Notes under the pieces: model-generated | The model's database searches: none | What the model saw: only the letters and a program-made list of their open reading frames with translations | Told to the model about the DNA's origin: nothing | In this document: piece after piece, positions 10,268 through 58,040 of the stretch | Layout: each line of letters opens with the position of its first letter | Position numbering within the stretch: the stretch's first letter is position 1 | Made by a program: the position numbers and the translations under genes | Origin: Terriglobia bacterium | GTDB taxonomy: Bacteria; Acidobacteriota; Terriglobia; 20CM-2-55-15 | Reading direction: 5' to 3' | DNA length: 64,000 bases | NCBI GenBank assembly: GCA_965198225.1 | Contig: CBDAOY010000007.1 | Coordinates: 544,001-608,000, forward strand

Positions 10268-11233
10268 TTGATTTCGTTCAAACTGGCCAACCTCGACGAG
10301 GGAGACCTGGGCGGTCCAGCCATCGTCGTCGATGATCGTGTCCATGACCTGCAACGGGTCGCGGAGAGCATCGAGACGTCGCCCGCGACGGCGGAGATCG
10401 TCCTGCCTTCGAACAACCGCGAGCTGATCGAACAGTATGGGCGGTGTCGTGAACGCCTCTCCGAAATCGCGGCGGCGATCTCTGCCAAAGACTCTGCCGG
10501 GCTGGAGCCCGGCGAGACCAGTTTCCGTCCTCCGATCCTCTATCCGTGGAACCTGGTGGCGGTGGCGGTGAATTATCGGGCCCACGGCGAGGAGATGGAC
10601 CGTCAGCTCGATGAGGACTACCTCAAGGACCCGCCTTATCTCTTCACCAAGTCTCCCAGGGCCTGCTTGAGGGCAACGGGGGAGGCGCTGGTGATTCCGG
10701 AGGGTCGGGAGAAGATCGATTGGGAACTGGAGCTGGCGGCGATCATCGGGAAGAGGGCCACCAGGGTCCCCCGATCATCGGGAAGAGGGCCACCAGGGTC
10801 CCCCGAGCGCGCTCCGGAACACATCTGGGGGTTCGGCCTCATTCTGGACATGTCGGACCGGCAGATGTTGAAGCGGAAGAACGCGTTCTTCAACGTGGAT
10901 TGGTTCAATGCGAAGACGCGCGACGGCTTTGCTCCCATGGGTCCCTACATCGTCCCGGCCGAGTTCGTTCCCCAGCACGGGGACCTGCACATGCAACTCC
11001 GTGTCAACGATCAGGTGATGCAGGCCTACAGCACCCGGCACATGACCCACAACGTCGAAGAACTCGTCGAATTCATCTCGTCGATCCACACGCTGGAACC
11101 GGGCGACATCATCGCGACCGGCACTCCGCCCGGTGTCGGAAAGGGAAGAAAGCCTCCCATCTTCCTGAAACCCGGCGACATCATCACCGCCGAGATCGAG
11201 GGCATCTGCTCGATCACCACCCCTATCGCTTGA
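10268..11233 (+). CDS. Fumarylacetoacetate hydrolase family protein (start uncertain, 10169-10268)
   Basis: VNYRAH, IDWELELA, GFAPMGP, LEPGDIIATGTP; contains a 32-bp tandem duplication. Confidence 0.85.
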   Translation: MISFKLANLDEGDLGGPAIVVDDRVHDLQRVAESIETSPATAEIVLPSNNRELIEQYGRCRERLSEIAAAISAKDSAGLEPGETSFRPPILYPWNLVAVAVNYRAHGEEMDRQLDEDYLKDPPYLFTKSPRACLRATGEALVIPEGREKIDWELELAAIIGKRATRVPRSSGRGPPGSPERAPEHIWGFGLILDMSDRQMLKRKNAFFNVDWFNAKTRDGFAPMGPYIVPAEFVPQHGDLHMQLRVNDQVMQAYSTRHMTHNVEELVEFISSIHTLEPGDIIATGTPPGVGKGRKPPIFLKPGDIITAEIEGICSITTPIA

Positions 11234-11240
11234 CGGATCC

Positions 11241-11378
11241 TCAAATTTCAAATGTGCAATTTCGAACTTCCATTGTGGAATTTTCGTTAGTCAATTTGCG
11301 ATGGGCTCGTTTCATTGCAGATTTACTAATGGAGAATCCGCACTGGAGATCGTAGATTCGACATTCGAAATTTGAGAC
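11241..11378. repeat. Inverted pair of AT-rich ~65-bp repeats (homologous to 18373-18522)
   Basis: tcgaacttccattgtggaattttc...gtcaatttgcgat matches the reverse complement of 18373-18440. Confidence 0.7.
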
Positions 11379-11396
11379 TGTCGAGGGAACGCCTCG

Positions 11397-14300
11397 TCAG
11401 TTGTCCGGCTCGTCGGGCGGCAGGACCGGGCGTTTTCGGGAGATCGTGAAGATGTTGGCGTCCAGGTAGTCTTTCTTTTCGCGTTTGACCTGGTATTTCG
11501 ATTCCGCGAGAAACCGGGCGTGGGCCAGGTCGAACTGGAGGCCGGCACCGGCGACCATCTGGAGCCATTCGCCGCGGGCAGTCTCGTCGGGTGCCTCGGT
11601 GCCCCCTGCGAACACCGTCACGTTGGGGTGCCGGACCATGAAACTGTTCGAGCTGCCGCTCTGCTTCGACCCCTTGATCGCCGAGTAAATCATCACCCCG
11701 TCGTGGATGTCTCGCTTGTAGTTTTCCTGATCCCACTCGCCGTACTTGTTGTAGCGGCGGTACATCCGTTCGTTCAGCTCGGGAACGGTCTCCGAGATGG
11801 CGGCCGCGATTCGGTCCCGGATGGCGAAGGCGGTCCTTTCGTGGTCAGGGAACTTCGGGTCCTGGATGTAGTTGAATCCCGGCATGAACCAGCCGCGGGG
11901 CGCCCACCAGCTGCGGCCGTTCGGAGTCCGTGAACGAACCCAGGCGCTGTAACCGGCAAACAGCTGAACCCATTCGTGAGACGGGTATCCGTGCGGGTTC
12001 AGGACGATGTCGGGAAGCCACATCTGCCACAGGTCCTTCCGCACGGTGGTTTCCGGGTATTTCGGGTTTGCGTCCCACTGCCCGGACGTGACGTCGACGC
12101 CGAGCGACCCGAGGTATCCGGCATGGAGCATGAAATCAGGTGTGATCTCCTGCAGTTCGTAGGCGAGATCGGCGCCATCCGGGTTCGTGATCGGATGGAT
12201 GACGAAGTTGACGCTCTCGAGCAGCGGTTTGTACTCGTCGTCGGTCGTCAGCAGTTCGACCAACCTCAGGATGTGCGACGTACTCGAGACCTCGTTGGCG
12301 TGCTGCCGACCCGTGATGAAAAGCACAGGCTTCGTTGTGGAAAGCTTAGCCTGGGAATGGAATCGGCCCTCCAGTGGCGACATCACGTCCATCGCCCAGA
12401 TCCGCTTGTTCAGGTAAGAGCTGGTCGTGTAGAAGGGGCGGACCTCGGGGAAGCTCGCCAGCTCGGAGATGATCTGTTCGGCTTCACTGCTGTTGATCGG
12501 GTTGTCCCACTGCACGATCGGCTTCTGGCTGGGCGCGGACGCTTCGACTTTCGGCACCCGGTAGTAGCCGTCTTCGGTGCGCGACACGGATGCCGCCATG
12601 ACTTCTTCATGGCGGGTCTCGAATCGGATCGTGATGCTGTCGACACCATCGTAGGAAAGCCAGCTGTTGCCGAAGCCGAGTCTGTGGAACTCCTCGATGT
12701 TGTTGACCATCGCCGCGGCCTGTTCGCTCGACAGCAGCGTGCGATCGATCACCTCGCCACGGGCTTTCGTGATCAGCTCGTCTCGCTGGTTTTCCTCGGA
12801 ATCGGTTTCCTGCAGAAATTCGAGTGACACCACACCTTCACGGCCGACCTCGACGGTCTCGGCGATGATCTGCGGCGGCTCGATGTTGACGGGTACGAAG
12901 TCCTCGGTCCAACGCTGCTTGACTTTGCCGCGTTCCCGGAACTCCAAGTCGACCCGGGGGTTCGGCCCCGCCTTGCCCGTGAAACGGATCCGCGCCGTTC
13001 CGTCAGAACCTTCACGAGCAGGGCGAATCCTGGGGATCACGCGTCCGGGGTAGTTCAAACGCTCTCCGGCGTAGTACTGGCCCAGCAAGTCGAAGAACAG
13101 CAGCGTCTCGAAGTAAATGTCTTCGTGCATCGCCTCGAGCGCCGAGATCTGTTCTTCGTCGATTCCGATGCGGTAGTCCGGTTCGCTCATCCAAAGATCC
13201 ACTTCCAGTGAGCCGAAGTAGGGCGCCCATCGAGCTCGCGGCTTGCCCTCGTAGAGTTCGAGAACGTAGTTGTGGATCTGACCGAAGACCCGTTTCTGGA
13301 ACTCGTCCCAGAACCGTTCCGGATCGATCTTGACGCGTTCGTCGACGAGGGTCGCGCCTCCTATCTTCGCGACGATGCTTCCCGTCGTTACCCGGACTTG
13401 TTCGTACTGGGGAAACTGGTCGAACATCGGGCGGAAGACAAACCGCGGATCAAACGCCTCATTCAAGAACCGACGACCCTGGGCGTCGGTCGCCTCGACG
13501 CGGTAGATCGGGCCGGAGGTGGTCTTTTCGAACGTGATGTCGTCGACGGGTATGTTCAGGTCTCGAGCCAGGACTTCGTCGATCGGAAACAGTTCCTGCA
13601 GCCAACGGATCGGGGATTCAACCGTCTGCCAGCCTTCGGGTTCCAGCTCACGGAAGTAGATCGTGATCTTTCGGGCATCGGCAAGGCGGGGTTTCAGGTC
13701 GTCGTCGATCCAGCTGTAGCCCTGCTTGTAAGCAGACAGGACCCGAACTTCGGTCCTTTCTGGATTCGCTCCGGCCCGCACCAGCCGGTCGCGAAACTCT
13801 GTCTTCAAGCGTTGACGCATTTCCGGCGATTCGCTGACGCGAACTTCCAGATCGACGACCGCACCGGCTTCAATCTCCGGGATCAGTCGGGCAGAGATCA
13901 CCTCTCGGACGTCGGCAACCTCCCAGGCAACGTCGAAGGTCTCGTCGAAAACCGGTTCGGCCGAGAGGACATCGATGTTGGCGGCGGTAACGTTGATGTC
14001 GGGGAACTCACCTCGGATGTGTTCGAGAAACTCCTCGCCGCCGCGTTCGACGAACACTTTCATTTCGGCAGACTCCAGGTCGAGACCGTCGAGCTTCCGG
14101 GCCATGCGCCGGGCCTTGTAGAGTGCGGCGGCCGCCTGGGCTTCCGGAGAGCGCAGCGAGAAGAATCGACGCAGGTCATCCTGTACCTTCGCGAGATGGA
14201 GACTGTCCTTGCCGTAGTCCCAGGCGTAGGGCAGACGACCGGCGGCGTGCTCGATCGCACGATCCTCTCCGGCTCGGTCCCCCCCGATGATCACCAGAGC

Positions 14301-15137
14301 CGTGTGATCCTTCTCGAACGCCTTTCGGACGACTTCGATGCGACCCTGGCCGGGTGCAGGGTAGGAGGAGAACTTTCCGTCCTCGATCAGCTTCTGGACG
14401 TGGGGATTGGACCGTCCGATGAGTATCGGATTCTGGGGTTCCTGCTCTTGGCCGGCCACGAGAACCAGCGGGAGACGCAGGCCCGTTGTTTCCAGTCCGA
14501 TTCGGGCCGCGAGGTCGATGACACCCGGAGATTGGGTGTCCGGTCCGATATAAATCGTCGTTTCAGTCTTGTCGGGGATGAAATCGCTGTTGGAGTCTCC
14601 CAGCAGGCCATCCGGGCTGTAAAGGCGGGCCAGCGAGTATGTCTTCGACGACAGCTCTTCGTCGATCGGCTCTTCGGACGTGTCTTCCTCGTCTTCTTCG
14701 TCGTCCCCTTCCACGCCCTCTGAACCTGGTTCTTCCTCAGCGTCTTCAGGCGGCTGAGGAGACTCCAGTGATCGCGCCCATGCGTTCGCGTCCTCAGGAG
14801 CGGCTATTGCGATGACCTGCCGGTTTCCGTCGCTGGTTTCCACCACGGCTTCGGACCGCCCGCCGATGAAGCGGGTCGCAGCGCTACCGACCACGATAGC
14901 GACCGAGGAATCGCCGTTCGAGTAATCCGAGATCCGGTATCCGATGGGCAGATCGATCGACAGAGACTCGAAAGCCAGACGGGCCGCGACGTTCGCCGCG
15001 GCGGCGAGTTCGCCGGGCGTCGGATCATCGGCGACATACACCCTGGCGTTGACGTAGTCGATGACGCCGTCCTGATTGCGGTCCTCCAGAATCCCGGTCG
15101 GGAAGGTGATGAAAAGCAGGAAGATGAGGGTTTTCAT
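11397..15137 (-). CDS. Large secreted M14 zinc carboxypeptidase-domain protein
   Basis: Signal peptide; C-terminal GRQHANE, NPDG and NPHG M14 motifs. Confidence 0.8.
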   Translation of the reverse strand: MKTLIFLLFITFPTGILEDRNQDGVIDYVNARVYVADDPTPGELAAAANVAARLAFESLSIDLPIGYRISDYSNGDSSVAIVVGSAATRFIGGRSEAVVETSDGNRQVIAIAAPEDANAWARSLESPQPPEDAEEEPGSEGVEGDDEEDEEDTSEEPIDEELSSKTYSLARLYSPDGLLGDSNSDFIPDKTETTIYIGPDTQSPGVIDLAARIGLETTGLRLPLVLVAGQEQEPQNPILIGRSNPHVQKLIEDGKFSSYPAPGQGRIEVVRKAFEKDHTALVIIGGDRAGEDRAIEHAAGRLPYAWDYGKDSLHLAKVQDDLRRFFSLRSPEAQAAAALYKARRMARKLDGLDLESAEMKVFVERGGEEFLEHIRGEFPDINVTAANIDVLSAEPVFDETFDVAWEVADVREVISARLIPEIEAGAVVDLEVRVSESPEMRQRLKTEFRDRLVRAGANPERTEVRVLSAYKQGYSWIDDDLKPRLADARKITIYFRELEPEGWQTVESPIRWLQELFPIDEVLARDLNIPVDDITFEKTTSGPIYRVEATDAQGRRFLNEAFDPRFVFRPMFDQFPQYEQVRVTTGSIVAKIGGATLVDERVKIDPERFWDEFQKRVFGQIHNYVLELYEGKPRARWAPYFGSLEVDLWMSEPDYRIGIDEEQISALEAMHEDIYFETLLFFDLLGQYYAGERLNYPGRVIPRIRPAREGSDGTARIRFTGKAGPNPRVDLEFRERGKVKQRWTEDFVPVNIEPPQIIAETVEVGREGVVSLEFLQETDSEENQRDELITKARGEVIDRTLLSSEQAAAMVNNIEEFHRLGFGNSWLSYDGVDSITIRFETRHEEVMAASVSRTEDGYYRVPKVEASAPSQKPIVQWDNPINSSEAEQIISELASFPEVRPFYTTSSYLNKRIWAMDVMSPLEGRFHSQAKLSTTKPVLFITGRQHANEVSSTSHILRLVELLTTDDEYKPLLESVNFVIHPITNPDGADLAYELQEITPDFMLHAGYLGSLGVDVTSGQWDANPKYPETTVRKDLWQMWLPDIVLNPHGYPSHEWVQLFAGYSAWVRSRTPNGRSWWAPRGWFMPGFNYIQDPKFPDHERTAFAIRDRIAAAISETVPELNERMYRRYNKYGEWDQENYKRDIHDGVMIYSAIKGSKQSGSSNSFMVRHPNVTVFAGGTEAPDETARGEWLQMVAGAGLQFDLAHARFLAESKYQVKREKKDYLDANIFTISRKRPVLPPDEPDN

Positions 15138-15266
15138 GGAACGGGATCTTAACACCAGGGAGAAGTGCATTCAAAGAAACGCCAATTTCGACCTCAACCT
15201 CCAATTTCGAAATTCGAATGAACAACCTTCAATGTGGATTAGTGAATAGACAACCTCCAATCCCGC

Positions 15267-15557
15267 CTACAGGCGTTTTGTGATTGCAGCCATCTCCTCG
15301 GGTGTGAACGCGCGCATCGTCGTCGACCGAACATTTCCGTTTTTGCCGACTGCCAGGGTGAAGGCGCTGATGCTTTCGTCATCTTCTGCCTCGAAAACGG
15401 CGACGAGGTCAAAGGGCCCGACGGTGTAATGTGCGCTCAACATTTTGACGCCAAACTTGGCGGCCAGTTTCTGGCTCTGTTTGAGCCGGCTCGTTGATCT
15501 CTTGATGTTCCGGATTCCCTGATCGGTGAAGTTGATGAGACTGACGTAGGTAACCAT
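15267..15557 (-). CDS. GYD domain protein
   Basis: YVSLINFTDQGIRNIK...YTVGPFDLV...GNVRSTTMRAF. Confidence 0.85.
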   Translation of the reverse strand: MVTYVSLINFTDQGIRNIKRSTSRLKQSQKLAAKFGVKMLSAHYTVGPFDLVAVFEAEDDESISAFTLAVGKNGNVRSTTMRAFTPEEMAAITKRL

Positions 15558-15687
15558 CGTGTAAACCTCCTGGGTGTGATGGAATCTTGAGGGAGAAAGA
15601 ATAGAACAGACCCGAAGCCTCCGCCAGCCATTGACCGTGATCCGAATCGCCTGACCCGTCCCACCGTGCTTTCCGAGAGGCTGTCTT

Positions 15688-15763
15688 AACCACGGAGGCG
15701 CGGAGACACGGAGGGGGACAGGCAGGTGATCTATCTCTTCTCCGTGCCTCGGGCCTCCGTGGT
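15688..15763. repeat. Inverted ACCACGGAG-type repeat pair (also at 26976-27003)
   Basis: aaccacggaggcgcggagacacggag ... ctccgtgcctcgggcctccgtggt. Confidence 0.65.
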
Positions 15764-15799
15764 AATAGTCTTTTCGTGCCTGAGGTCCTTTTGGGACGA

Positions 15800-16861
15800 T
15801 TAGTCGTGGAGGTCGATCCAGCGGCCTTCTGCGGAGGAGCGGCGGGCCGCATCGAGGACCAACTGGCTGGCGACGCCGTCTTTGAAGCTAGGCGAAGGCG
15901 AGGACAGCCTGCGGTCAATGGCGTTGACGAGGGAATTGATAAGGACGCGAAACGGCGCTCTCAGGAAGGGGCCGGGTTCTCTCGGTAGCTGGTAGCGCGC
16001 AGGTATGGTCAACGTTTCTACCTTCCGATTGGAACGCTTGCCTCCGGAGATATCGACACACTTGTAACCGGGCAGGACAAGCTGTCCTTCGCTGCCGTAG
16101 ATCCCGATCTGGGACTCTTCGACGCCCGCGACTGCGCTCATGTGGACGATGGCTCGCGCGTCGGAATCAAACTCCACGATCATGACGTATGCGTCGTCGC
16201 TGGTGACGGCGTGTCCTTCCCGTTCTCTTACGAATGTCACCAGATCGCAGAACACACGCCGCGGTTCCCCGACCCAGAGTCGTAGCGAGTCGACGGCGTG
16301 CGAACCGATGGCGCCGAGTAATCCGCCTCCGCGGTCCCGGTCCGACCACCAGTCCCATCCGACGTCCTCAGGTTTGGAGCGCCACCCGAAGTGACGTGTG
16401 AACTCCACCATCCGAACCTTTCCGACATAGTTCTGGTGCAGGAGGTCGGCGAGGTAGGTTCGTGCAGGGAGGTACCTGAACTCGAAGTCGACCATCGCCA
16501 CGACACCTGCCTTCGTCGCGGCGGCTTCCATACGCTGGGCCTCTTCCGCGTTCATGGCGAACGGCTTTTCACAAAGGACATGGATGCCACGCTCTATGGC
16601 CGCCAGTGCCATCGAACAGTGGAGTTCGGTCGGGGTCGCGATGCTGACCAGGTCCGGCTTCTCTTCATCGAGCATTTCCTCGAAATCCGTGTACGCGCCC
16701 GGGACGCGGTGCTCCTGCGCGACCGAACGGGCGCGGTCGGCCCGTCCGCTGGAGACAGCGACGACCCTCGTGCGGTCGTGGGACTGAAAGACCGGAATCT
16801 GGACGCCGCCCGCAAACGAGGTGCCGGCTACGGCTACGCGTATAACATCTGGCTCTGCCAT
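15800..16861 (-). CDS. Gfo/Idh/MocA oxidoreductase
   Basis: HVLCEKP, GGGLLGAIGSH. Confidence 0.9.
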   Translation of the reverse strand: MAEPDVIRVAVAGTSFAGGVQIPVFQSHDRTRVVAVSSGRADRARSVAQEHRVPGAYTDFEEMLDEEKPDLVSIATPTELHCSMALAAIERGIHVLCEKPFAMNAEEAQRMEAAATKAGVVAMVDFEFRYLPARTYLADLLHQNYVGKVRMVEFTRHFGWRSKPEDVGWDWWSDRDRGGGLLGAIGSHAVDSLRLWVGEPRRVFCDLVTFVREREGHAVTSDDAYVMIVEFDSDARAIVHMSAVAGVEESQIGIYGSEGQLVLPGYKCVDISGGKRSNRKVETLTIPARYQLPREPGPFLRAPFRVLINSLVNAIDRRLSSPSPSFKDGVASQLVLDAARRSSAEGRWIDLHD

Positions 16862-17006
16862 TTCGATTATGCTCCGGGCGCGGCAAAGGTGCCCCGAAGG
16901 TCCCGCAATTTATCAGGTTGTACAGGGGGTTTCAACGTGCACGTGTTGCGCCAGTCTCGTCGTAATCCGTTTCGGCTGCCACATGCTACAATCGTCGGTT
17001 TGAATT

Positions 17007-18314
17007 ATGGCTAGAATCATTCCATTCAGAGCTCTTCAGTACTCGGCCGACCGGGTTCCGATCCAGGACGTCGTCACTCAGCCCTACGACAAGATCTCAA
17101 CCGAGATGCAACAGCGTTACTACGACCTGCATCCCAACAATCTCGTCCGAATCCTCCGTGGCAAGAGCGAAGCCGGCGATGACGGGGACGCCTCGGTCTA
17201 TACTCGAGCGGCCTCCTACCTGGCGAAGTGGCGTGATGAGGGAATCATCGGACAGGTTCCCGAACCCTCATTGTTTGCTTATTTTCAGCGGTTTGAGACG
17301 CCGGGTTCGGGCGAGGTGCGTACCCGTAAAGGGCTGATCGGGCTTTGCAGGCTGGAAGACTACGCCAACCGGGTCGTCTTTCCGCACGAGCGAACAATGA
17401 CCGGGCCCAAGCAGGATCGTCTCGAACTGCTGCGCCGTACCAAAACCCATTTCGGTCAGGTCTTCCTGATGTATTCCGATCCTGACCGCAGCGTCGATCG
17501 GATGCTGGAACAGGCTTCAACCGAAGCGGCCGACACGATCGTGCGCGACGAATACGACGTAGAGCATTCTCTCTGGCGTATCTCCGATCCCGCGACGATT
17601 GAAGCCATCCAAGGCGCCATGGCCGAGCAGAGCCTCCTGATAGCGGACGGCCACCACCGGTACGAAACGGCACTGGCTTTTCGGGACGAGATGCGCACCG
17701 AGAATGGCTCCGCCGACGCCGGGGGCTACGAATGGCTCATGACGACGATGGTCAACATGGAAAGTCCCGGCGTCGCCATTCTCCCGACCCACCGCGTCGT
17801 GTCAAACGTGGCGGACTACGATCCCGGCGGGCTGGTCCACCGCGCCAGCGAATTCTTCGACGTCTCCGAAACCGTCGATCTCCGGAGCCTGGAATCGGAA
17901 CTGGAAGCGAGCGGGGACGAACGCCCCACGATTGGTGTCTGCGGAAAGGGGGACGATCGGTTCGTGTTGCTGAAGCTCAAGCCTGGATTGGATCTACCCG
18001 CGATCCTGCCCGGCGTCTCGGAGTGCGAGGCCAATCTGGATGTCGTCGTGCTGCACCGACTCGTCCTCGACAAATGCATTGGTATTTCCGCGGACGACGT
18101 TCGAGCCGGAAAGTACCTCTCCTACGTCCGGGGTCTGGACGCAGCCGTCGAGCGTGTACGGGAGCAGGACTGCCAGGCGGCGTTTCTGCTCAACGCGACG
18201 CGGATCGATCAGGTTCGCGACATTGCCTTCGGCGGGGACGTCCTGCCCCAGAAATCCACGGACTTCTACCCGAAGGTCCTGTCGGGCCTGACCATGTATT
18301 GCATGGAACCGTAG
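17007..18314 (+). CDS. DUF1015 family protein
   Basis: TQPYDKI, PHERT, IADGHHRYE, PQKSTDFYPK. Confidence 0.9.
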   Translation: MARIIPFRALQYSADRVPIQDVVTQPYDKISTEMQQRYYDLHPNNLVRILRGKSEAGDDGDASVYTRAASYLAKWRDEGIIGQVPEPSLFAYFQRFETPGSGEVRTRKGLIGLCRLEDYANRVVFPHERTMTGPKQDRLELLRRTKTHFGQVFLMYSDPDRSVDRMLEQASTEAADTIVRDEYDVEHSLWRISDPATIEAIQGAMAEQSLLIADGHHRYETALAFRDEMRTENGSADAGGYEWLMTTMVNMESPGVAILPTHRVVSNVADYDPGGLVHRASEFFDVSETVDLRSLESELEASGDERPTIGVCGKGDDRFVLLKLKPGLDLPAILPGVSECEANLDVVVLHRLVLDKCIGISADDVRAGKYLSYVRGLDAAVERVREQDCQAAFLLNATRIDQVRDIAFGGDVLPQKSTDFYPKVLSGLTMYCMEP

Positions 18315-30807: not shown

Positions 30808-30815
30808 GGGGGGAT

Positions 30816-30988
30816 CGTAGGCCGTAGGGCGTTATCCGTAGGTCGTTGGAGTCTGAGCGGCGGTGACCGCCGGTTCTTACGGAATCAGTTCTCCCTTTCC
30901 GACTTTTCTGCCTAACGAAAACCCGAGAGTCAAGAGCCAAACTTCAATAAGGGACAACGGATAACGGCCTACGGACAACGGCCTACGA
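30816..30988. repeat. Inverted heptamer arrays (CCGTAGG family)
   Basis: cgtaggccgtagggcgttatccgtagg ... acggataacggcctacggacaacggcctacg. Confidence 0.75.
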
Positions 30989-31018
30989 ACTAGTAGCCGG
31001 TGGCCACCGGCTACTAGT
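30989..31018. repeat. Perfect 30-bp palindrome
   Basis: ACTAGTAGCCGGTGG|CCACCGGCTACTAGT. Confidence 0.9.
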
Positions 31019-31119
31019 CAAACAACCCAGGCTGCTCATGCCTCCGGATCGGTATAGCGTCCAGGACTGCGTCAAAACCCAACTCCGCACACAGGGGGTG
31101 ACCTGTTCGGGATGCCCTT
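31013..31119. repeat. 107-bp direct repeat of the 3' end of the 5'-3' exonuclease gene (left boundary of the islet)
   Basis: Matches 33648-33755 except for a 1-nt indel (acagggggtg vs acagggtggtg). Confidence 0.95.
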
Positions 31120-31482
31120 CGATGGCGCGATGATGGGCTGCTCACGCAATCCCGCCCACCTAGCAATACCCGGCCGAGGGCGGTCCATTGGAAAGCGATG
31201 GTTTCATGAACAGATCAGGTTGAACGGTTGGGGTGTTATGCGGAGCTGTAGGAGACAAGAGGCCGAGGACCGCGACAAATGGATCAAACAGCAACCGCGC
31301 CCGAAGCGCAGAATCGCACGGGCCGAAGCGCACGAATCCGCGAGAATGTGATCACTCGCGGGAGCGAAACCGAACAATCAGGGACTCCGTTTTGCCTCCG
31401 GAAGTCACGTGTCTTTTTTCGATCACCCGCGGTGTTCGTCGAGCACGGTCGGGCGTGTGGGGTGGCCTCTCGATCGGAACGC

Positions 31483-32287
31483 CTAGTTCGCTGCGCGGAC
31501 GTGCTCGATGCCCAGGGCCTCCAAGCGGTCAGCGATCGAACCGATGCCGGTGTACGCGGCCGCCATGAGATTGGGGCCGTAGAGGTGGGGTCGCCCTTCA
31601 CCGACGATTTCGGCGACCGCGCGGCGGAGGCTCTCCCGCAGAAGGAGATCCTCTCCCGGGTCGGGGACGTAGCTGTAGAAGAGGGCGCGCCGCGGCCGTC
31701 CGTCCTCCCGCTTCCAGGCGGAGTGCCAGAGCCGGTTGTGCCAGACCACCGCGTCGCCGGGATTCGTGTGGACCGATACCGCGCCGGGGATGCCGTCTCT
31801 TTTCAAGCGCAGGCGCGGTTTACCATCCTCCCATTCCCCGCACGCCGCAAACAACCCCTTGTTCCATTCCGCGTGATGGGTACCCGGAATGACATTGAGG
31901 GCGCCCTGCTGTGCGCTTGTTTCGTCCAGGTAGTACGTCACACGAATCGTCTGGACCGGGTCTCCCGGAACCCCTGCGGTGTGCCACGGCAGGTCGTCCA
32001 TGTTGGAAATGACATAGTTCCCCAGGTACAGGCAGGGTGTCGACCAGAGGTCCGTCATCGCCTCGAATCCGGGGGTGGGCGGCCGGTGCCGCAAATGCCG
32101 GGTCTCGATCCTCGGCGAAGAACAGGATCCGGCTGCCGGCATCGCCGAAATTGTCATACCGCGGCGCATCCGGCATCACGCGGTCGAACGTCTTGGTCAA
32201 CGAGTCGAGCTCGCCGGCCTCCAGACATCCCCGGACCACGACGAACCCGAACGCCCGAAACATACCGACTTCCAGCTCACTGAGCAT
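31483..32287 (-). pseudogene. PhyH-family Fe(II)/2-oxoglutarate oxygenase or halogenase-like enzyme, one frameshift at ~32070
   Basis: N-terminal FRAFGFVVVRGCL in one frame; LPWHTAG...YYLDETSAQQGALNVIPGTH...PGDAVVWHNRLWHSA...RRAL in the adjacent frame; G5 run at 32071-32075. Confidence 0.8.
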
Positions 32288-32515
32288 GCCGCGCCACTCC
32301 GGACATTCGATCTCCCGACAACCCCCGTCGGTCAGCGCGATCTATTCTAATCAACGGGTCGCCGAAAGGGTGCCATGCCCCCGCGACCCGGCAGCCGTCT
32401 GCCAGCGAGAGGCTACGGGATTTCTCTTGACTGTGCCAGGGCGCGATTCCAAGGTTGACCTAACGACTTCTCCGCAGATAAGACGAACAGTGACCTTACG
32501 TCGAGGGGGAACACC

Positions 32516-32905
32516 ATGCCGCAAAACGAAGAGGCGATCAAAGAACTCTGGGCGAAGCTCGTGGCCCAGTCGTGGGGGGATGCGAATCTGAGACAGCGCA
32601 TGCTCGATGAGCCGGCCGCGGTCTTGAAGGAGAACGGAGTTCAGGTACCCGACGGGTTCCGCGTCCACACCTTCGAGGACGACGGTCAGACCATCGTTCT
32701 ACCTGTCAATGTCGAGCCGGCTGAAACAGAGCTGTCCGAAGAGGAGCTGGAGTCCGTCGCTGGGGGCGTCGAAGTCATCGCCAACCCGACGATGGGCGCT
32801 TTGAAGGGCTTCGACTCACTGGAGTTCGTGGGCCCGTGCCTCAAACCCAAAGGTGCACTCGGGTCTGAAGGCGGGAAGACGGGTGCAATGGGGCCGTGCT
32901 TCTGA
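32516..32905 (+). CDS. NHLP-leader (nitrile hydratase-like) RiPP precursor 1
   Basis: KLVAQSWGDANLRQRMLDEPAAVLKENG...ELSEEELESVAGG double-Gly leader followed by a 45-aa core; RBS gaggggga. Confidence 0.9.
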   Translation: MPQNEEAIKELWAKLVAQSWGDANLRQRMLDEPAAVLKENGVQVPDGFRVHTFEDDGQTIVLPVNVEPAETELSEEELESVAGGVEVIANPTMGALKGFDSLEFVGPCLKPKGALGSEGGKTGAMGPCF

Positions 32906-32981
32906 ACCGACTAACGCGGCCATGGCTGCCTGGAGCTACAGGTACTCAAACAGGCAAACCGGATCGCGCCGGGGAAACGAT

Positions 32982-33380
32982 ATGCAAAACGAAGATGACA
33001 TCAAACAACTCTGGGCGAAGCTCGTGGCCAAGTCGTGGGAGGATGCGAATCTGAGACAGCGCATGCTCGATGAGCCGGCCGCGGTCTTGAAGGAGAACGG
33101 AGTTCAGGTACCCGCCGGGTTCCGCGTCCACACCTTCGAGGACGACGGTCAGACCATCGTTCTACCTGTCAATGTCGAGCCGGCTGAAACAGAGCTGTCC
33201 GAAGAGGAGCTGGAGTCCGTCGCTGGGGGCGTGGAAGTCATCGCCAACCCGACGATCGGCGCTTTGAAGGGCTTCGAGTCGCTGCTTGTCATCGGCCCGT
33301 GCGATGGACCTAGAGAGGGGATGGGTCCGTGCGCCCGGCCTAAAAGCGGGAAGACGGGTGCCATCGGGCCGTGCTTCTAG
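32982..33380 (+). CDS. NHLP-leader RiPP precursor 2
   Basis: Near-identical leader ending VAGG followed by a 49-aa core with three GPC motifs. Confidence 0.9.
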   Translation: MQNEDDIKQLWAKLVAKSWEDANLRQRMLDEPAAVLKENGVQVPAGFRVHTFEDDGQTIVLPVNVEPAETELSEEELESVAGGVEVIANPTIGALKGFESLLVIGPCDGPREGMGPCARPKSGKTGAIGPCF

Positions 33381-33575
33381 GTTTGCTGCTTAGGGTGCAA
33401 CAATAACGTCAGGGAACGCACCCCCTATTTGCAGTAAGCTGAGACCTGCACAGCGGCCAGACCGTCGCGGGGGACGGAATACGTACACGCCGGCGGACCT
33501 CACACCCGACGCACCACCGCGTCTATCAACGGACCGGCCCGCCGCAGGCGCAGACGGATAGTTTTTCTGGTCAGC

Positions 33576-33624
33576 ACCACCCCAGCGCTTCGCGCCACCC
33601 CTCCTCATCTGAGGAGGGGAGTTT
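33576..33624. repeat. CCCCTCC/GGAGGGG hairpin repeat (second copy at 46955-47014, opposite orientation)
   Basis: Reverse complement aactcccctcctcagatgaggaggggtggcgcg...ggggtggt resembles 46955-47014. Confidence 0.7.
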
Positions 33625-33648
33625 AGGTGTCGCCCCGGCCACGGACCA

Positions 33649-34566
33649 CTAGTCAAACAACCCAGGCTGCTCATGCCTCCGGATCGGTATAGCGTCCAGG
33701 ACTGCGTCAAAACCCAACTCCGCACACAGGGTGGTGACCTGTTCGGGATGCCCTTTGCGGTAGCGCAGCAAGTCGGGTGAGATGTCCATATCGACGTCGC
33801 ACCGAATCCTCGCCAGCTCGCGACTCATCCGGACAGTGTCCAGGTTTTCGCGGATGCGTTTGAGAATGCGCTCGCGTCCCCTGAATGAAACTCCGTCAAG
33901 GTCGGAGTTCACGATGTCTTCGACCGTTCGGCAGGCAGCCAGGAGTTTGCTGGCAGTCTTCCCCCCGACTCCCAGGACCCCGGGGATGTTATCGACGGAG
34001 TCGCCGAGCAGAGCCAGCAGGTCGGGCACCTGGGCGGGCTCAACGCCCAGCTTGTTCTTGACCCCAGCCCGGTCGAGCCAGACGTTCTTCGCGAGATCGT
34101 AGATCCTGATGCGTTGGTCGACCAACTGAGCAAGATCCTTGTCTCCGCTGACGATGACGACGGGATGACCCAGGTCAGCCATGCGCACGGCAAGCGATCC
34201 GATGACATCATCGGCTTCGAAGGTTTCGACCTGAAAGGCGGCGATGCCGACCGCTTCAGTGATCCGCTGGCAGTACTGAAACTGGATCTTCAGGTCGTCG
34301 GGCGGTGAAACCCGATTCGCCTTGTACTCGGTGAAGAGTTCACGCCGGAAAGAATGTGCCCCCTCGAACGCAGCAGCGATATAGGGGGGATCCTGCTCTT
34401 TGATGATGCGCAGCAGGGTTCGCAGGTAACCCAGCACCGCGTTGGTTTTCATCCCGGACGGGGCAGTGATCGTTTCGGGCAGACCGTAGTAGGCACGAAA
34501 GATGTAGTTCATCGCATCGATGAGGAAGACCGGTCTCGAATTGAGGGGTAGCGAAGTCACGTCCAA
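33649..34566 (-). CDS. Stand-alone 5'-3' exonuclease (Pol I N-terminal / flap endonuclease-like)
   Basis: LIDAMNYIFRAYY, YKANR, EADDVIG, SGDKDLAQL, GDSVDNIPGV.GVGGKTA. Confidence 0.92.
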   Translation of the reverse strand: MDVTSLPLNSRPVFLIDAMNYIFRAYYGLPETITAPSGMKTNAVLGYLRTLLRIIKEQDPPYIAAAFEGAHSFRRELFTEYKANRVSPPDDLKIQFQYCQRITEAVGIAAFQVETFEADDVIGSLAVRMADLGHPVVIVSGDKDLAQLVDQRIRIYDLAKNVWLDRAGVKNKLGVEPAQVPDLLALLGDSVDNIPGVLGVGGKTASKLLAACRTVEDIVNSDLDGVSFRGRERILKRIRENLDTVRMSRELARIRCDVDMDISPDLLRYRKGHPEQVTTLCAELGFDAVLDAIPIRRHEQPGLFD

Positions 34567-55145: not shown

Positions 55146-56246
55146 ATGGGAGAGGCGAAGATAGACTCGGAGATTGCAAGAAAGGTCAAGCAGGGAGAAC
55201 GACTTAGCTTCGAGGACGGCGTCGCGCTGTACCGCAGCAGCGACGTACTGGGGTTGGGTCGACTGGCCGAGAGGGTACGGGTGCGTCTCAACGGTCATTC
55301 CGCCTACTACAACGTCAACCGTCACATCAATTACACCAACGTCTGCGTCATCGACTGTCAGCTGTGTCAGGGCGCCTACGCCCGCAAGCCGGGTGAAGAC
55401 GGCGGCTACACGATGGACCTGGAGCAGGTCTTCCGGTTTGCCGCGCAGAAATACAACGATTCGGTGACCGAGTTTCACATCGTCGGCGGACTCAACCCGG
55501 AGTTGGAGTTCCAGTACTACATCGATTTGCTTGCAGGTCTAAGGCAGCGCTTTCCGGGGGTCCACCTGAAAGCTTTCACGATGGTGGAGCTCGATTTCTT
55601 CACGAAGATTACACGCCAGCCCCTGGAGTGGGTAATCGGGAAGCTTCGCGACGCCGGAATGGGAAGCTGTCCCGGCGGCGGCGCGGAGATTTTTGCCGAG
55701 CGCGCGCGACCGATGATTGCCGGACACAAGATATCGGGAGATCGCTGGCTCGAGTGTGCACGAACCGTTCATCGCATGGGCATCCGCTCGAACGCGACCA
55801 TGCTCTACGGGCACATCGAGACGACCGAGGAGCGGGTGGATCATCTGATCCGACTGCGCGAGTTGCAAGACGAAACAGGAGGGTTTAATTGCTTCATCCC
55901 GTTGGCCTTTCATCCCGAGAACACCGTGCTGGAACACCTACCTCCGACGACCGGCACGGACGATATCCGAACCATCGCGGTGTCGCGTCTGATGCTCGAT
56001 AACTTCTCCCATATCAAGGCTTACTGGGTCACGATCACGCCGTCGCTGGCTCAGGTCGCTCTGCGGTTCGGCGCCGACGACCTGGACGGTACGATCATCG
56101 AAGAGAGGATCATCCACGGCGCCGGCAGTCAAACCAGTCCCGGTTTGACCAGAGAGGAGATCGAGCAGCTGATTCGGGACGTCGGATGCGACCCGATCGA
56201 GCGCGACACGCTCTACAATCGGGTCGGCAAGAAGCAGGCGGTGTAG
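55146..56246 (+). CDS. mqnE: Aminofutalosine synthase MqnE (CofH-like radical SAM)
   Basis: NRHINYTNVC..DCQLC, HIVGG, PGGGAEIF, NATMLYGHIE, HIKAYW. Confidence 0.85.
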   Translation: MGEAKIDSEIARKVKQGERLSFEDGVALYRSSDVLGLGRLAERVRVRLNGHSAYYNVNRHINYTNVCVIDCQLCQGAYARKPGEDGGYTMDLEQVFRFAAQKYNDSVTEFHIVGGLNPELEFQYYIDLLAGLRQRFPGVHLKAFTMVELDFFTKITRQPLEWVIGKLRDAGMGSCPGGGAEIFAERARPMIAGHKISGDRWLECARTVHRMGIRSNATMLYGHIETTEERVDHLIRLRELQDETGGFNCFIPLAFHPENTVLEHLPPTTGTDDIRTIAVSRLMLDNFSHIKAYWVTITPSLAQVALRFGADDLDGTIIEERIIHGAGSQTSPGLTREEIEQLIRDVGCDPIERDTLYNRVGKKQAV

Positions 56247-56295
56247 ACGACGGGTCCAGCTTACCTGTCCCGCAATCCAGGCACCGGAAGCGCGC

Positions 56296-57009
56296 ATGCT
56301 GAACCCGAAAGTGATGGCCCTGGCGAAAAAAGCGGTTCCTTCGGCCATCTATCGTCGCCTGGATCCGTTCGAGGCTACCATTGCCTCCTTTGTCGAGAGC
56401 GTCGCCACGAACACGCCCGACGACCATCTGGTTCTGGATGCCGGCGCCGGCGAGTCGCGATTCCGGGGACTGTTTGACCACGCCCGCTACCTAACGATCG
56501 ATTTCGGGTTAGGGGATCGAGACTGGGATTACAGCGGCCTCGACATCATCGGGAGGTGCGAGGAGCTGCCGCTCGCTGATGCGAGCTGCGATAGGGTGCT
56601 CTCGGTGGTCGTGTTGGAGCACACACCCGAACCGGCCCGCGTGATCGAGGAATTCCACCGGGTGCTGAAGTCTGGAGGCAGTGTGCACATGGTCGTGCCG
56701 CACATGTGGGAAGAACACCAGCGTCCCTTCGATTACTTTCGATACACCGCGTCGGGGATTCGCTACCTCCTCGAGGAGTCCGGCTTCCGGATTCTGGAGA
56801 TTCGCCCGGTGGGCGGGTTTTTCTGGCAACTCGGCAGACGGCTGATGGGCGTACTGGCTTTTACGCAGAAGGGTTGGAGGTGGATTCTCTTTCCCTTACT
56901 GGCGCCGATCTTCGGGTTGTTCCTGCCGCTCTGCTGTTATTATCTCGATGCGCTCGATCGAGACCGTGCGTACACGTTGGGTTATGTCTGTGAGGGACTG
57001 AGAGAGTGA
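56296..57009 (+). CDS. Class I SAM-dependent methyltransferase
   Basis: LDAGAGE, VLEH.PEP, PFDYFRYT. Confidence 0.88.
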   Translation: MLNPKVMALAKKAVPSAIYRRLDPFEATIASFVESVATNTPDDHLVLDAGAGESRFRGLFDHARYLTIDFGLGDRDWDYSGLDIIGRCEELPLADASCDRVLSVVVLEHTPEPARVIEEFHRVLKSGGSVHMVVPHMWEEHQRPFDYFRYTASGIRYLLEESGFRILEIRPVGGFFWQLGRRLMGVLAFTQKGWRWILFPLLAPIFGLFLPLCCYYLDALDRDRAYTLGYVCEGLRE

Positions 57010-58040
57010 ATCGCAAGATAGGGAACCGGATGAGGATCGCGGCCAGTTATTTTCGCCGACAGGCGGTGCTGCCCGGCGGGCCCATCGAAGTCACGCTGGA
57101 GAGCACTGCGAAGTGTAACCTCTACTGCCCGATGTGTCCCCGTCACATCTATACCTTCGACGACGAGAGCATGGACCTGGATCTTTTCCGGAAGATTGTT
57201 GCCGACTGCAAGGACTACGTCGAGTTCGCCTGGCCGTACGGTATCGGCGAGCCGATGATTCATCCGGACATTTTCGAGATGATCCGGATCACGCGTGAAG
57301 CGGGCATTCGAACCGGGATGTCCACCAACGCTACCCTTCTGGACGACAAACGTGCCGACATGCTGCTCGATTCCGGATTGGACTACCTGATTCTGGCCTT
57401 CGACGGCGCCACGAAGGAGAGCTACGAGAGGTACCGCGTCGGGGCCGAGTTCGAGCGGACCCGGCAGAACATTTTCAATCTCCTGAAGAAAAAGCTCGAC
57501 CGCGGATCATCGATGTTCACCGTCGTCCAAATGGTCCTCCTGAAAGATAACCAGCACGAGGTCGACGCATACCGAAAGCTTTGGGATATCGAAGGCGTGG
57601 ACGAAGTACGTTTCAAGCGCGACGAAGTCCACATCGACGGGTCTCGCATCCCCGATTCGCAGCTGGAGGGCCAGCGGCGGAACCCCTGTCATCTCCTGTG
57701 GCGCGGACCACTCTACGTGCGCTACGACGGAAAAGCATTTCCGTGTTGCTACATGTACGACGAGGAACCGATAGGTGACTTGCGGGAGCAGTCCGTGATG
57801 GAGGTCTGGAACTCTCCGGCCATGGTCGCGTTGCGTGAGGCACACCTGGCCGGTGACGTCAGCGACTACCCTCTATGCCAGAACTGCCAGGCGGTACGCC
57901 CCGGCCTGCCCGCATTTTACGGCAGCCTGATGGTCGACGGCCTGACCGTCCGGAAGGCCGTCCCCGTCCTGGAAAAACTCGCGAAGTTTTACAAGATCAA
58001 CGTTTTTGAGAAGAAGCAGCCGGCAGGACTGGCTGACTAA
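57006..58040 (+). CDS. Radical SAM protein with SPASM/Twitch domain
   Basis: CNLYCPMC, GEPMIHP; C-terminal C...PCC...CQNC. Confidence 0.88.
   Translation: MNRKIGNRMRIAASYFRRQAVLPGGPIEVTLESTAKCNLYCPMCPRHIYTFDDESMDLDLFRKIVADCKDYVEFAWPYGIGEPMIHPDIFEMIRITREAGIRTGMSTNATLLDDKRADMLLDSGLDYLILAFDGATKESYERYRVGAEFERTRQNIFNLLKKKLDRGSSMFTVVQMVLLKDNQHEVDAYRKLWDIEGVDEVRFKRDEVHIDGSRIPDSQLEGQRRNPCHLLWRGPLYVRYDGKAFPCCYMYDEEPIGDLREQSVMEVWNSPAMVALREAHLAGDVSDYPLCQNCQAVRPGLPAFYGSLMVDGLTVRKAVPVLEKLAKFYKINVFEKKQPAGLAD

What the first reader, a model, noticed from the sequence alone, without database searches (positions are those of the whole stretch)
32516..33380. Tandem NHLP precursors with repeated [VIM]GPC motifs and a shared GKTGAxGPCF terminus
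Seen: core 1 (45 aa) is VEVIANPTMGALKGFDSLEFVGPCLKPKGALGSEGGKTGAMGPCF. Core 2 (49 aa) is VEVIANPTIGALKGFESLLVIGPCDGPREGMGPCARPKSGKTGAIGPCF. Every Cys (2 and 3 respectively) lies in a hydrophobic-G-P-C motif. I do not recognise this motif from described NHLP cores, which tend to be Val/Ala-rich or Cys/Ser/Thr-clustered. Inference: GPC is a repeated recognition site for a Cys- or Pro-directed modification, or a metal-binding unit.
Basis: partly seen in the sequence, partly recalled or inferred. Interest (0 to 1): 0.8.

Follow-up and report, generated by a model that had tools for sequence, protein, structure and literature searches.

The report
Orphan NHLP peptide pair with Gly-Pro-Cys units
Two duplicated genes for secreted-peptide precursors, in which every cysteine sits in a Gly-Pro-Cys unit, arrived in this soil-type bacterium on a small inserted DNA piece together with an oxygenase gene that is now broken, so the motif is real and rare but what it does remains unproven.

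Summary
Window 32516-32905 and 32982-33380 encode two NHLP-leader precursors (TIGR03793 64.8 and 66.8 bits, cut-off 50.9).

Only one other GPC core was found, an ENA protein with 3 GPC. The other 10 relatives in that alignment share a box about 10-15 residues after the GG site, but have no Cys.

The pair lies on a 2,635-bp insertion flanked by about 118-nt direct repeats. The insertion is absent from 3 of 3 same-genus genomes. Its only other gene is a PhyH-like 2OG oxygenase. That gene is split by one base in a C5 run, and short-read contigs of three runs from three studies show the same letters. It also reads H-T-A where relatives have the iron-binding H-x-D.

No intact maturase lies nearby. 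The genome has one LanM of the CCG type on another contig, no YcaO and no MNIO enzyme, and its only C39 exporter gene is split.

Best reading (0.35): an orphan, horizontally acquired precursor pair in which the GPC cysteines act as loop-closing or metal-binding thiols. Rivals are LanM acting in trans, a lost PhyH partnership, an unknown maturase, and dead remnants.

I rate it a new variant of a known kind, of moderate interest.

The parts
32516..32905 (+). NHLP-leader precursor 1 (129 aa): leader 32516-32767 ending VAGG, 45-aa core 32768-32902 with 2 GPC units
   Evidence: ORF and translation; TIGR03793 64.8 bits, cut-off 50.9
32982..33380 (+). NHLP-leader precursor 2 (132 aa): leader 32982-33230, 49-aa core 33231-33377 with 3 GPC units
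   Evidence: TIGR03793 66.8 bits; Pfam NHase_alpha 33.9 bits, cut-off 27.2
32521..32820 (+). First copy of a 300-nt tandem duplication (second copy 32984-33283, 96% identical) covering leader and start of core
   Evidence: the repeat finder family D1; 6 non-synonymous and 0 synonymous codon differences in 82 leader codons
32831..32839 (+). GPC unit 1 of core 1 (V-G-P-C). The other units are at 32891-32899, 33294-33302, 33324-33332 and 33366-33374
31483..32287 (-). PhyH-like Fe(II)/2-oxoglutarate oxygenase gene, divergent from the precursors and split into two reading frames. It reads H-T-A where relatives have H-x-D
   Evidence: Pfam PhyH 39.4 bits on the C-terminal piece. The two pieces align end to end with relatives of about 262-278 aa. 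WH-x-D motif survey. Profile aligns this motif with ectoine hydroxylase 4MHR
32071..32075 (-). Run of five C (five G on the + strand) where the reading frame of the PhyH-like gene changes
   Evidence: Three-frame translation and sequence. Same letters, with no gap, in Logan contigs of runs X1, X3 and X5 from three studies
31002..31119 (.). Left direct repeat: a copy of the 3' end of the 5'-3' exonuclease gene
   Evidence: the repeat finder D2 plus D4, 97% and 96% identity, spacing 2635-2636; the translated remnant is seen
33637..33755 (.). Right direct repeat: the true 3' end of the 5'-3' exonuclease gene (33649-34566, minus strand)
33570..33624 (.). Dispersed repeat of about 55 nt at the right edge of the insertion
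   Evidence: 36 further blastn hits to the 111-nt query in the genome, about 26-37 covering this core; depth spike of 895-2111 against about 4-20 nearby, and many loose ends, in the laid contigs

Best explanation
These are two recently duplicated genes for NHLP-leader, double-glycine RiPP-type precursors. They were acquired on a 2.6-kb insertion together with a PhyH-like oxygenase gene that is now dead. They belong to a small precursor subfamily, found here only in Terriglobia MAGs, whose members are regularly encoded without a maturase next to them. One sub-branch of that family (these two plus one ENA protein) has a basic Gly/Pro-rich tail in which every Cys is held in a G-P-C unit. Inferred: the structured leader is cut after Gly-Gly by a peptidase/exporter encoded elsewhere. 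Also inferred: in the released 45- and 49-residue peptides the GPC cysteines act as free thiols that close loops by disulfide or hold a soft metal, with Gly-Pro giving the turn that presents each thiol. On this reading they are not sites for an enzyme encoded at this locus. Shown: the genes, the leader family, conservation of the motif, the insertion, the broken oxygenase gene, and the lack of a local maturase. Inferred: export, the cut at GG, and the chemistry of the thiols.
For: The leaders pass TIGR03793. The residues at -4, -7 and -12 from the GG boundary are V, L and L. A paper names hydrophobic residues at those positions as directing C39 peptidases (PMC12537861, section 6 read). GPC holds 8 of 8 Cys in the three Cys-bearing family members, against 0.37% of Cys genome-wide. 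Family members without Cys and without a maturase nearby were seen at G017/L025, G016/L026 and the own-genome C8 locus. G017 (96% complete, one contig) has a family member but no LanM. Flanking genes over about 15 kb each side are housekeeping. The genome gave no YcaO and no MNIO match at 97% completeness. The PhyH-like gene is frameshifted in three independent short-read assemblies. The core is predicted disordered (pLDDT about 42), which fits a flexible tail.
Against: Core 2 and P0003 have three Cys, an odd number for internal disulfides. The genome's only C39 exporter gene is split into a 464-aa C39+membrane part and a 268-aa ATPase part on the opposite strand 2.2 kb away, so no intact leader peptidase was identified. 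No transcript evidence was obtained. Such strict conservation of Gly-Pro before each Cys would also fit an enzyme recognition site.
Confidence: 0.35

Rival explanations
1. The peptides are class II lanthipeptide precursors processed in trans by the genome's single LanM, as prochlorosins are by ProcM. Ser/Thr in the cores would be dehydrated and the GPC cysteines would close (methyl)lanthionine rings.
For: One LanM exists (C6, 1102 aa, TIGR03897 862 bits). It sits next to its own NHLP precursor. It reads C-C-G where LicM2 (6ST5) reads C-H-G. PMC10027976 (passages read) links the CCG motif to highly promiscuous LanMs that act on precursors spread over the genome. Each GPC core has 4 or more Ser/Thr, including a Thr 6-7 residues before the last Cys in all three proteins.
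Against: The leader is only 28% identical to the LanM's neighbouring precursor. An NHLP-specific LanM, DprM, did not accept four other NHLP leaders (PMC12537861, section 7 read). Core 2 has no Ser/Thr between its first and second Cys. Ser/Thr positions other than two Thr are not conserved among the three cores. LanM chemistry does not explain an invariant Gly-Pro. The family also occurs in G017, which gave no LanM match.
Confidence: 0.2
2. An unidentified maturase encoded elsewhere recognises either the GPC units or the conserved box that follows the GG site in the whole family, and modifies Cys or Pro.
For: GPC is invariant over two genomes, and the box L-K-[SG]-F is nearly invariant in 13 family members (L95 at 90% or more). 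Precursors of this family are usually orphans, which suggests machinery acting in trans.
Against: No candidate was found. The own genome gave no YcaO and no MNIO match. It has only two SPASM radical-SAM genes; the one inside the window (57006-58040) lies next to MqnE and scores far below every peptide-maturase cut-off. The Cys-free members cannot share a Cys-directed step.
Confidence: 0.2
3. The PhyH-like oxygenase was the cognate tailoring enzyme of the GPC peptides in the donor, acting as a hydroxylase or, with Ala in place of the iron-binding Asp, in a halogenase-like or thiolate-ligated way. In this genome the partnership is lost and the cassette is decaying.
For: The oxygenase gene and the two precursor genes are the only genes on the 2,635-bp insertion, and they are divergently arranged 228 bp apart. 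2OG/iron enzymes acting on long-leader precursors are documented (MppG; 10.64898/2026.10.04.756588, abstract and section 6 read). It reads H-T-A where most of the relatives surveyed read H-x-D, including six of the seven closest that cover the site; P0016 reads H-T-T. A PhyH-family halogenase is in the PDB list (9pv1, BtnX). That Asp-to-Ala/Gly marks 2OG halogenases is recalled knowledge.
Against: None of the 9 loci of PhyH relatives from other phyla (8 plus L033) has an NHLP-like ORF within 6 kb. The enzyme has no extra domain for leader binding. The gene is frameshifted in three studies' assemblies, and a database variant (P0014) diverges again after residue 137. The tree does not resolve whether the two Asp-less proteins are sisters, so the loss of Asp may simply be decay.
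Confidence: 0.15
4. The two genes are non-functional leftovers of a fragment of a foreign gene cluster. They are neither expressed nor matured.
For: The neighbouring gene is dead, there is no local maturase, the exporter gene is split, and the leader differences between the copies are 6 non-synonymous to 0 synonymous.
Against: Both reading frames are intact, with coding-like third-position GC (0.75 and 0.73) and purine-rich stretches before the starts. The duplicated pair is letter-identical over the stretches covered (32740-33070 and 33203-33600) in contigs of three runs from three studies. GPC is kept in a relative that is 69% identical.
Confidence: 0.1

Closest known systems
NHLP (nitrile hydratase-like leader peptide) RiPP precursors, TIGR03793
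   Same: Leader of about 83 residues that scores above the curated cut-off, ends in V-A-G-G, has hydrophobic residues at -4, -7 and -12, and occurs as tandem paralogues with diverging cores.
   Different: No maturase or exporter is adjacent. The core motif [hydrophobic]-G-P-C was not found in any other family member beyond three proteins.
Prochlorosin-type systems (ProcM/SyncM: one CCG-motif LanM, many scattered precursors)
   Same: One CCG-motif LanM in the genome, with long-leader precursors encoded far from it and cores that hold both Ser/Thr and Cys.
   Different: Leader only 28% identical to the LanM's own precursor. Cys are in a fixed motif rather than in hypervariable contexts. No experimental link.
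Class II double-glycine bacteriocin precursors (Pfam PF10439)
   Same: GG cleavage site and a leader end of that type; weak sub-threshold matches (15.3 and 17.2 bits, cut-off 27.1).
   Different: The leader is the long structured NHLP type, and the genome's only C39 exporter gene is split.
2OG/iron hydroxylases of long-leader RiPPs (e.g. MppG on a Nif11-type precursor)
   Same: A 2OG oxygenase gene is encoded beside long-leader precursors.
   Different: The enzyme here is PhyH-like with a single domain, lacks the Asp of the iron triad, and is frameshifted. MppG is reported with a His/Asp triad and an RRE domain.

Membership tests
NHLP leader family (TIGR03793) | Score above the curated cut-off over the whole model | tested here: met
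   64.8 and 66.8 bits against 50.9, model positions 3-77 of 77
NHLP leader family (TIGR03793) | Leader ends in a Gly-Gly cleavage motif with hydrophobic residues at -4, -7 and -12 | tested here: met
   V, L and L at those positions before G-G; the criterion is taken from PMC12537861 section 6
Class II lanthipeptide precursor (LanA of a LanM) | A LanM in the same gene cluster or genome | tested here: inconclusive
   One LanM in the genome, on contig C6, not at this locus
Class II lanthipeptide precursor (LanA of a LanM) | Leader of the kind the LanM recognises | tested here: inconclusive
   28% identity over 72 residues to the LanM's neighbouring precursor; a published NHLP LanM rejected foreign NHLP leaders
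Class II lanthipeptide precursor (LanA of a LanM) | Dehydrated Ser/Thr and thioether rings in the product | not testable with these tools
   Needs mass spectrometry
Proteusins (NHLP precursor plus radical-SAM epimerase) | Radical-SAM epimerase gene beside the precursor | tested here: not met
   No radical-SAM gene among the 20 flanking genes scanned. The window's SPASM gene at 57006-58040 lies by MqnE, 24 kb away, and its best family score is 122.8 bits against a cut-off of 380
TOMM / azol(in)e NHLP precursors | YcaO cyclodehydratase in the cluster or genome | tested here: not met
   PF02624: no match in the own genome, 97% complete
MNIO-modified Cys peptides (methanobactin, TglA, bufferin type) | MbnB/TglH/ChrH-family enzyme | tested here: not met
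   PF05114: no match in the own genome
PhyH-family Fe(II)/2OG oxygenase (the neighbouring gene) | Pfam PhyH match and an intact reading frame | tested here: not met
   Pfam match 39.4 bits, but the frame is split at the C5 run, confirmed in three runs
PhyH-family Fe(II)/2OG oxygenase (the neighbouring gene) | H-x-D ... H iron triad | tested here: not met
   H-T-A at the H-x-D place; the distal His is present
Fe(II)/2OG halogenase | Ala or Gly in place of the triad's Asp (recalled criterion), plus halogenating activity | tested here: inconclusive
   Ala is present, but the gene is broken, the closest Asp-less relative has Thr, and activity is not testable here

The most novel reading that the evidence does not exclude
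The G-P-C units are the substrate sites of the neighbouring Asp-less (H-x-A) PhyH-like 2OG/iron enzyme in lineages where that gene is intact. Either a Cys thiolate fills the open iron site and directs oxidation of the adjacent Pro or Cys, or the enzyme is a peptide halogenase. Either would be a RiPP modification not yet described for NHLP precursors.
Probability: 0.07. Interest if true: 0.8.

Novelty: new variant of a known kind. Interest (0 to 1): 0.35.

Why it matters
NHLP precursors are a well-known entry point to RiPP chemistry. A core motif that fixes every cysteine behind Gly-Pro, conserved across two genomes, could mark either a new Cys/Pro-directed modification or a simple thiol-based peptide. 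The locus also gives a clean small example of how precursor genes travel: a 2.6-kb insertion with target duplication, which lost its only enzyme gene after arrival. The practical value is limited for now. Only three such sequences were found and no working enzyme is attached, so progress needs the bench or the neighbourhood of the one foreign relative.

Tried and rejected
- Core-only search. A search of the 5.8-billion-protein set with core residues 84-132 returned only the query. A search seeded with P0003 returned the same family plus two distant leaders. No further GPC core was found.
- ESM Atlas with the core: no usable hit.
- JGI metagenome scan with the three GPC proteins: 595 pattern matches, none a relative.
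- Genome collection scans. The scan with the family alignment found only the two sister MAGs. A class-level search of 400 genomes with P0003 found no GPC relative outside the own genome. The neighbourhood of P0003 therefore could not be read.
- PhyH relatives: 8 loci from other phyla plus L033, 9 in all, with no NHLP-like ORF by a family HMM. A tree of 30 PhyH relatives did not resolve the position of the window's protein.
- Radical-SAM/SPASM gene in the window: rejected as a partner because of its distance, its MqnE neighbour and its low family scores.
- AlphaFold2 of precursor 2 with 13 sequences: mean pLDDT 52.5, core below 50. This gives no fold information on the core.
- Promoter/terminator scan of 32200-33700: 0 promoter-like sites, and one terminator-like site on the minus strand, no more than the shuffles gave.
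- Rfam on the whole window: no match.
- Composition: the insertion is 0.60-0.65 GC against 0.57-0.60 beside it. This is not distinctive.
- RNA. The one RNA-labelled run laid (X13, 8% of the sampled words) covers only 33585-33800, the dispersed repeat and the exonuclease end, and none of the precursor genes. This is neither evidence of expression nor of silence.
- Runs X1, X3 and X5. One of them may be the sample the genome was assembled from, so at most two are independent.
- Complex prediction was not used. LanM plus precursor exceeds the size limit, and an enzyme-substrate pair was judged unlikely to give a usable verdict.
- Supplements of the papers cited were not opened.

Full report
**What is there.** The window holds two adjacent plus-strand ORFs, 32516-32905 (129 aa) and 32982-33380 (132 aa). 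The second starts at the ATG homologous to the first gene's start; the mechanical ORF begins at a GTG at 32853.

Both match the NHLP leader model TIGR03793 over model positions 3-77 of 77, at 64.8 and 66.8 bits against a cut-off of 50.9. They also match Pfam NHase_alpha more weakly, at 25.6 and 33.9 bits against a cut-off of 27.2.

The leaders end in V-A-G-G, with V, L and L at -4, -7 and -12. PMC12537861 (section 6 read) describes hydrophobic residues at these positions as directing C39 peptidases.

The five Cys lie in V-G-P-C, M-G-P-C, I-G-P-C, M-G-P-C and I-G-P-C.

In the long ORFs of this genome, only 55 of 14,939 Cys are preceded by Gly-Pro. No other short ORF carries two or more GPC near its end.

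A 300-nt stretch covering leader and core start is duplicated at 96% identity. The leaders differ at 6 codons, all non-synonymous.

**How widespread it is.** A search of about 5.8 billion proteins found 13 relatives. A second search seeded with the closest foreign relative found the same set plus two distant leaders.

In the alignment, all 13 share the leader, and 12 share a Leu in a box of the form L-K-[SG]-F-x-x-[FL] some 10-15 residues after the GG.

Only three proteins have any Cys in that tail: the two of this window and P0003 (133 aa, 69% identical, from an ENA contig of 2.04 Mb). P0003 has three Cys, all in G-P-C. Two of them align with the first and last GPC of both window proteins, and the middle one aligns with core 2. 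So GPC holds 8 of 8 Cys in this sub-branch, while 10 of 13 family members have no GPC at all.

The following found nothing more:
- a core-only search;
- the ESM Atlas;
- a JGI metagenome scan;
- a 400-genome class sample.

**Where it sits.** Sister genomes carry titles naming Terriglobia MAGs, and the window is contig C7:544001-608000 of a 6.4-Mb genome. The 20 flanking genes I scanned are housekeeping:
- M24 peptidases;
- DnaJ;
- a GcvT-like protein;
- MBL hydrolases;
- a MoCF/FAD-synthase-like protein;
- a 5'-3' exonuclease;
- a thioesterase;
- an HtrA-like protease;
- a GTPase;
- an MFS transporter;
- Lon.

The exception is a minus-strand PhyH-like gene at 31483-32287, divergent from the precursors.

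In 3 of 3 same-genus genomes, the MoCF-like gene and the exonuclease gene lie 314-357 bp apart. Here about 2.99 kb separate the matching ends.

The extra DNA is bounded by a direct repeat of about 118 nt, at 31002-31119 and 33637-33755 (spacing 2635-2636). The repeat is the 3' end of the exonuclease gene.

The insertion therefore carries three genes only: the PhyH-like gene and the two precursors. At its right edge lies a 55-nt dispersed repeat, with 36 further blastn hits to its 111-nt query in the genome.

**The oxygenase gene is dead.** Its N-terminal 74 codons and C-terminal 194 codons lie in different frames. They align end to end with full-length relatives of 262-278 aa, and the frame changes at a run of five C at 32071-32075.

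Short-read contigs of three runs from three studies cover 31310-32607 (X1), 31310-32354 (X3) and 31648-32607 (X5), with no differing letter and no gap. The frameshift is therefore not an assembly error of this genome. One of those runs may be the source sample.

A database variant (P0014) is identical over 137 residues and then diverges. This suggests a second break in another assembly.

At the iron-binding H-x-D the protein reads H-T-A, while most of the relatives surveyed keep H-x-D, including six of the seven closest that cover the site. The seventh, P0016, reads H-T-T. A profile of the subfamily aligns this motif with W-H-S-D of ectoine hydroxylase 4MHR. That these are the iron ligands there is my recollection.

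The subfamily is rare, with 214 representatives at E up to 0.001 and 8 at 1e-30 or below. Nine loci from other phyla were checked (8 plus L033), and none has an NHLP-like ORF within 6 kb. A tree did not resolve whether the two Asp-less proteins are sisters.

**What else the genome offers.** TIGR03793 matched eight places in the genome. Six score above the cut-off:
- the two in this window;
- three in tandem on C8, between two-component genes and a 2728-aa adhesin, with no maturase; two of these have leaders like ours and Cys-free cores;
- one on C6, next to a 1102-aa LanM and two ABC transporters.

The two below the cut-off are on C5 and were not followed up.

The C6 LanM is the only one in the genome. 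It reads C-C-G where LicM2 reads C-H-G, the motif that PMC10027976 (passages read) ties to promiscuous LanMs acting on scattered precursors.

Against LanM action in trans:
- the leaders are only 28% identical;
- the family also occurs in G017, which gave no LanM match.

The genome gave no YcaO and no MNIO match. It has two SPASM genes. The one in the window lies by MqnE and scores far below peptide-maturase cut-offs.

The only C39 exporter gene is split. The C39 and membrane domains (464 aa) are on one strand. The ATPase (268 aa) is on the other strand, 2.2 kb away, with two small genes between.

**Reading.** What it does cannot be read from the sequence.

I put 0.35 on the plainest account. 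This is an orphan, horizontally acquired precursor pair of a family that normally lacks a neighbouring maturase. The pair would be cut at GG by machinery encoded elsewhere, and its GPC cysteines would serve as thiols, closing loops or holding a metal. The AlphaFold2 model gives no fold for the core (pLDDT about 42), which fits a flexible Gly/Pro tail but proves nothing.

The rivals are:
- LanM in trans, 0.2;
- an unknown trans-acting maturase, 0.2;
- a lost partnership with the PhyH-like enzyme, 0.15;
- dead remnants, 0.1.

The boldest reading still open is that the Asp-less PhyH-like enzyme acts on GPC in lineages where it is intact. Precedent exists for 2OG/iron enzymes on long-leader precursors (MppG; 10.64898/2026.10.04.756588, abstract and section 6 read).

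**Novelty in print.** The following searches returned nothing that describes this motif or pairing:
- 'NHLP' with 'phytanoyl-CoA dioxygenase': 0 papers;
- 'GPC motif' with 'peptide' and 'leader': 2 papers, of which 1 was listed and is unrelated;
- 'nitrile hydratase-like leader' with 'dioxygenase' and 'hydroxylation': 2 papers, seen as listings only;
- RiPP, halogenase and ketoglutarate terms: 12 papers.

These searches cover only the open library held here. I rate the finding a new variant of a known kind, with moderate interest.

Noticed in passing
window 33570-33624: A dispersed repeat of about 55 nt. The own genome gave 36 further blastn hits to the 111-nt query, about 26-37 of them covering this core, on contigs C5-C9. 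In the laid metagenome contigs it gives a depth spike of 895-2111 against about 4-20 nearby. It sits at the right edge of the insertion.
   Followed up: partly
G000:C5:287962-294637 (L055): Two small double-glycine peptides (90 and 59 aa) lie upstream of the genome's only C39 exporter gene. That gene is split: C39 plus membrane domain (464 aa) on the + strand, and the ATPase domain (268 aa) on the - strand 2.2 kb away, with two small genes (143 and 97 aa, not scanned) between them.
   Followed up: partly
G000:C8:1144983-1162283 (L009, L010): Three tandem NHLP precursors. Two have leaders like the window's and Cys-free cores that share the same post-GG box. They lie between two Reg_prop/Y_Y_Y histidine kinases with a LuxR-type response regulator and a 2728-aa cadherin/Big_9 adhesin, with no maturase nearby.
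   Followed up: partly
G000:C6:460579-469642 (L011): The genome's single LanM (1102 aa, C-C-G zinc motif) with its own NHLP precursor (Cys/Ser/Thr-rich core) and two 621-aa ABC transporters that lack a C39 domain.
   Followed up: partly
window 55146-58040: An operon-like row of an MqnE-type aminofutalosine synthase (490.7 bits, cut-off 434.55), a methyltransferase-like protein and a radical-SAM/SPASM protein that reaches no family cut-off.
   Followed up: partly
window 30815-30988: Inverted repeats of 22-34 nt, built from short repeated units, lie just after the MoCF-like gene and to the left of the insertion.
   Followed up: no
window 31269: A contig of run X1 lacks 24 nt here, in the non-coding left part of the insertion. 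This is strain-level length variation.
   Followed up: no
L025 (G017) 11008-17580: In a sister genome, the single family member lies beside what look, by eye only, like integrase and phage-type genes (not scanned against families). This again places the family next to mobile DNA.
   Followed up: no
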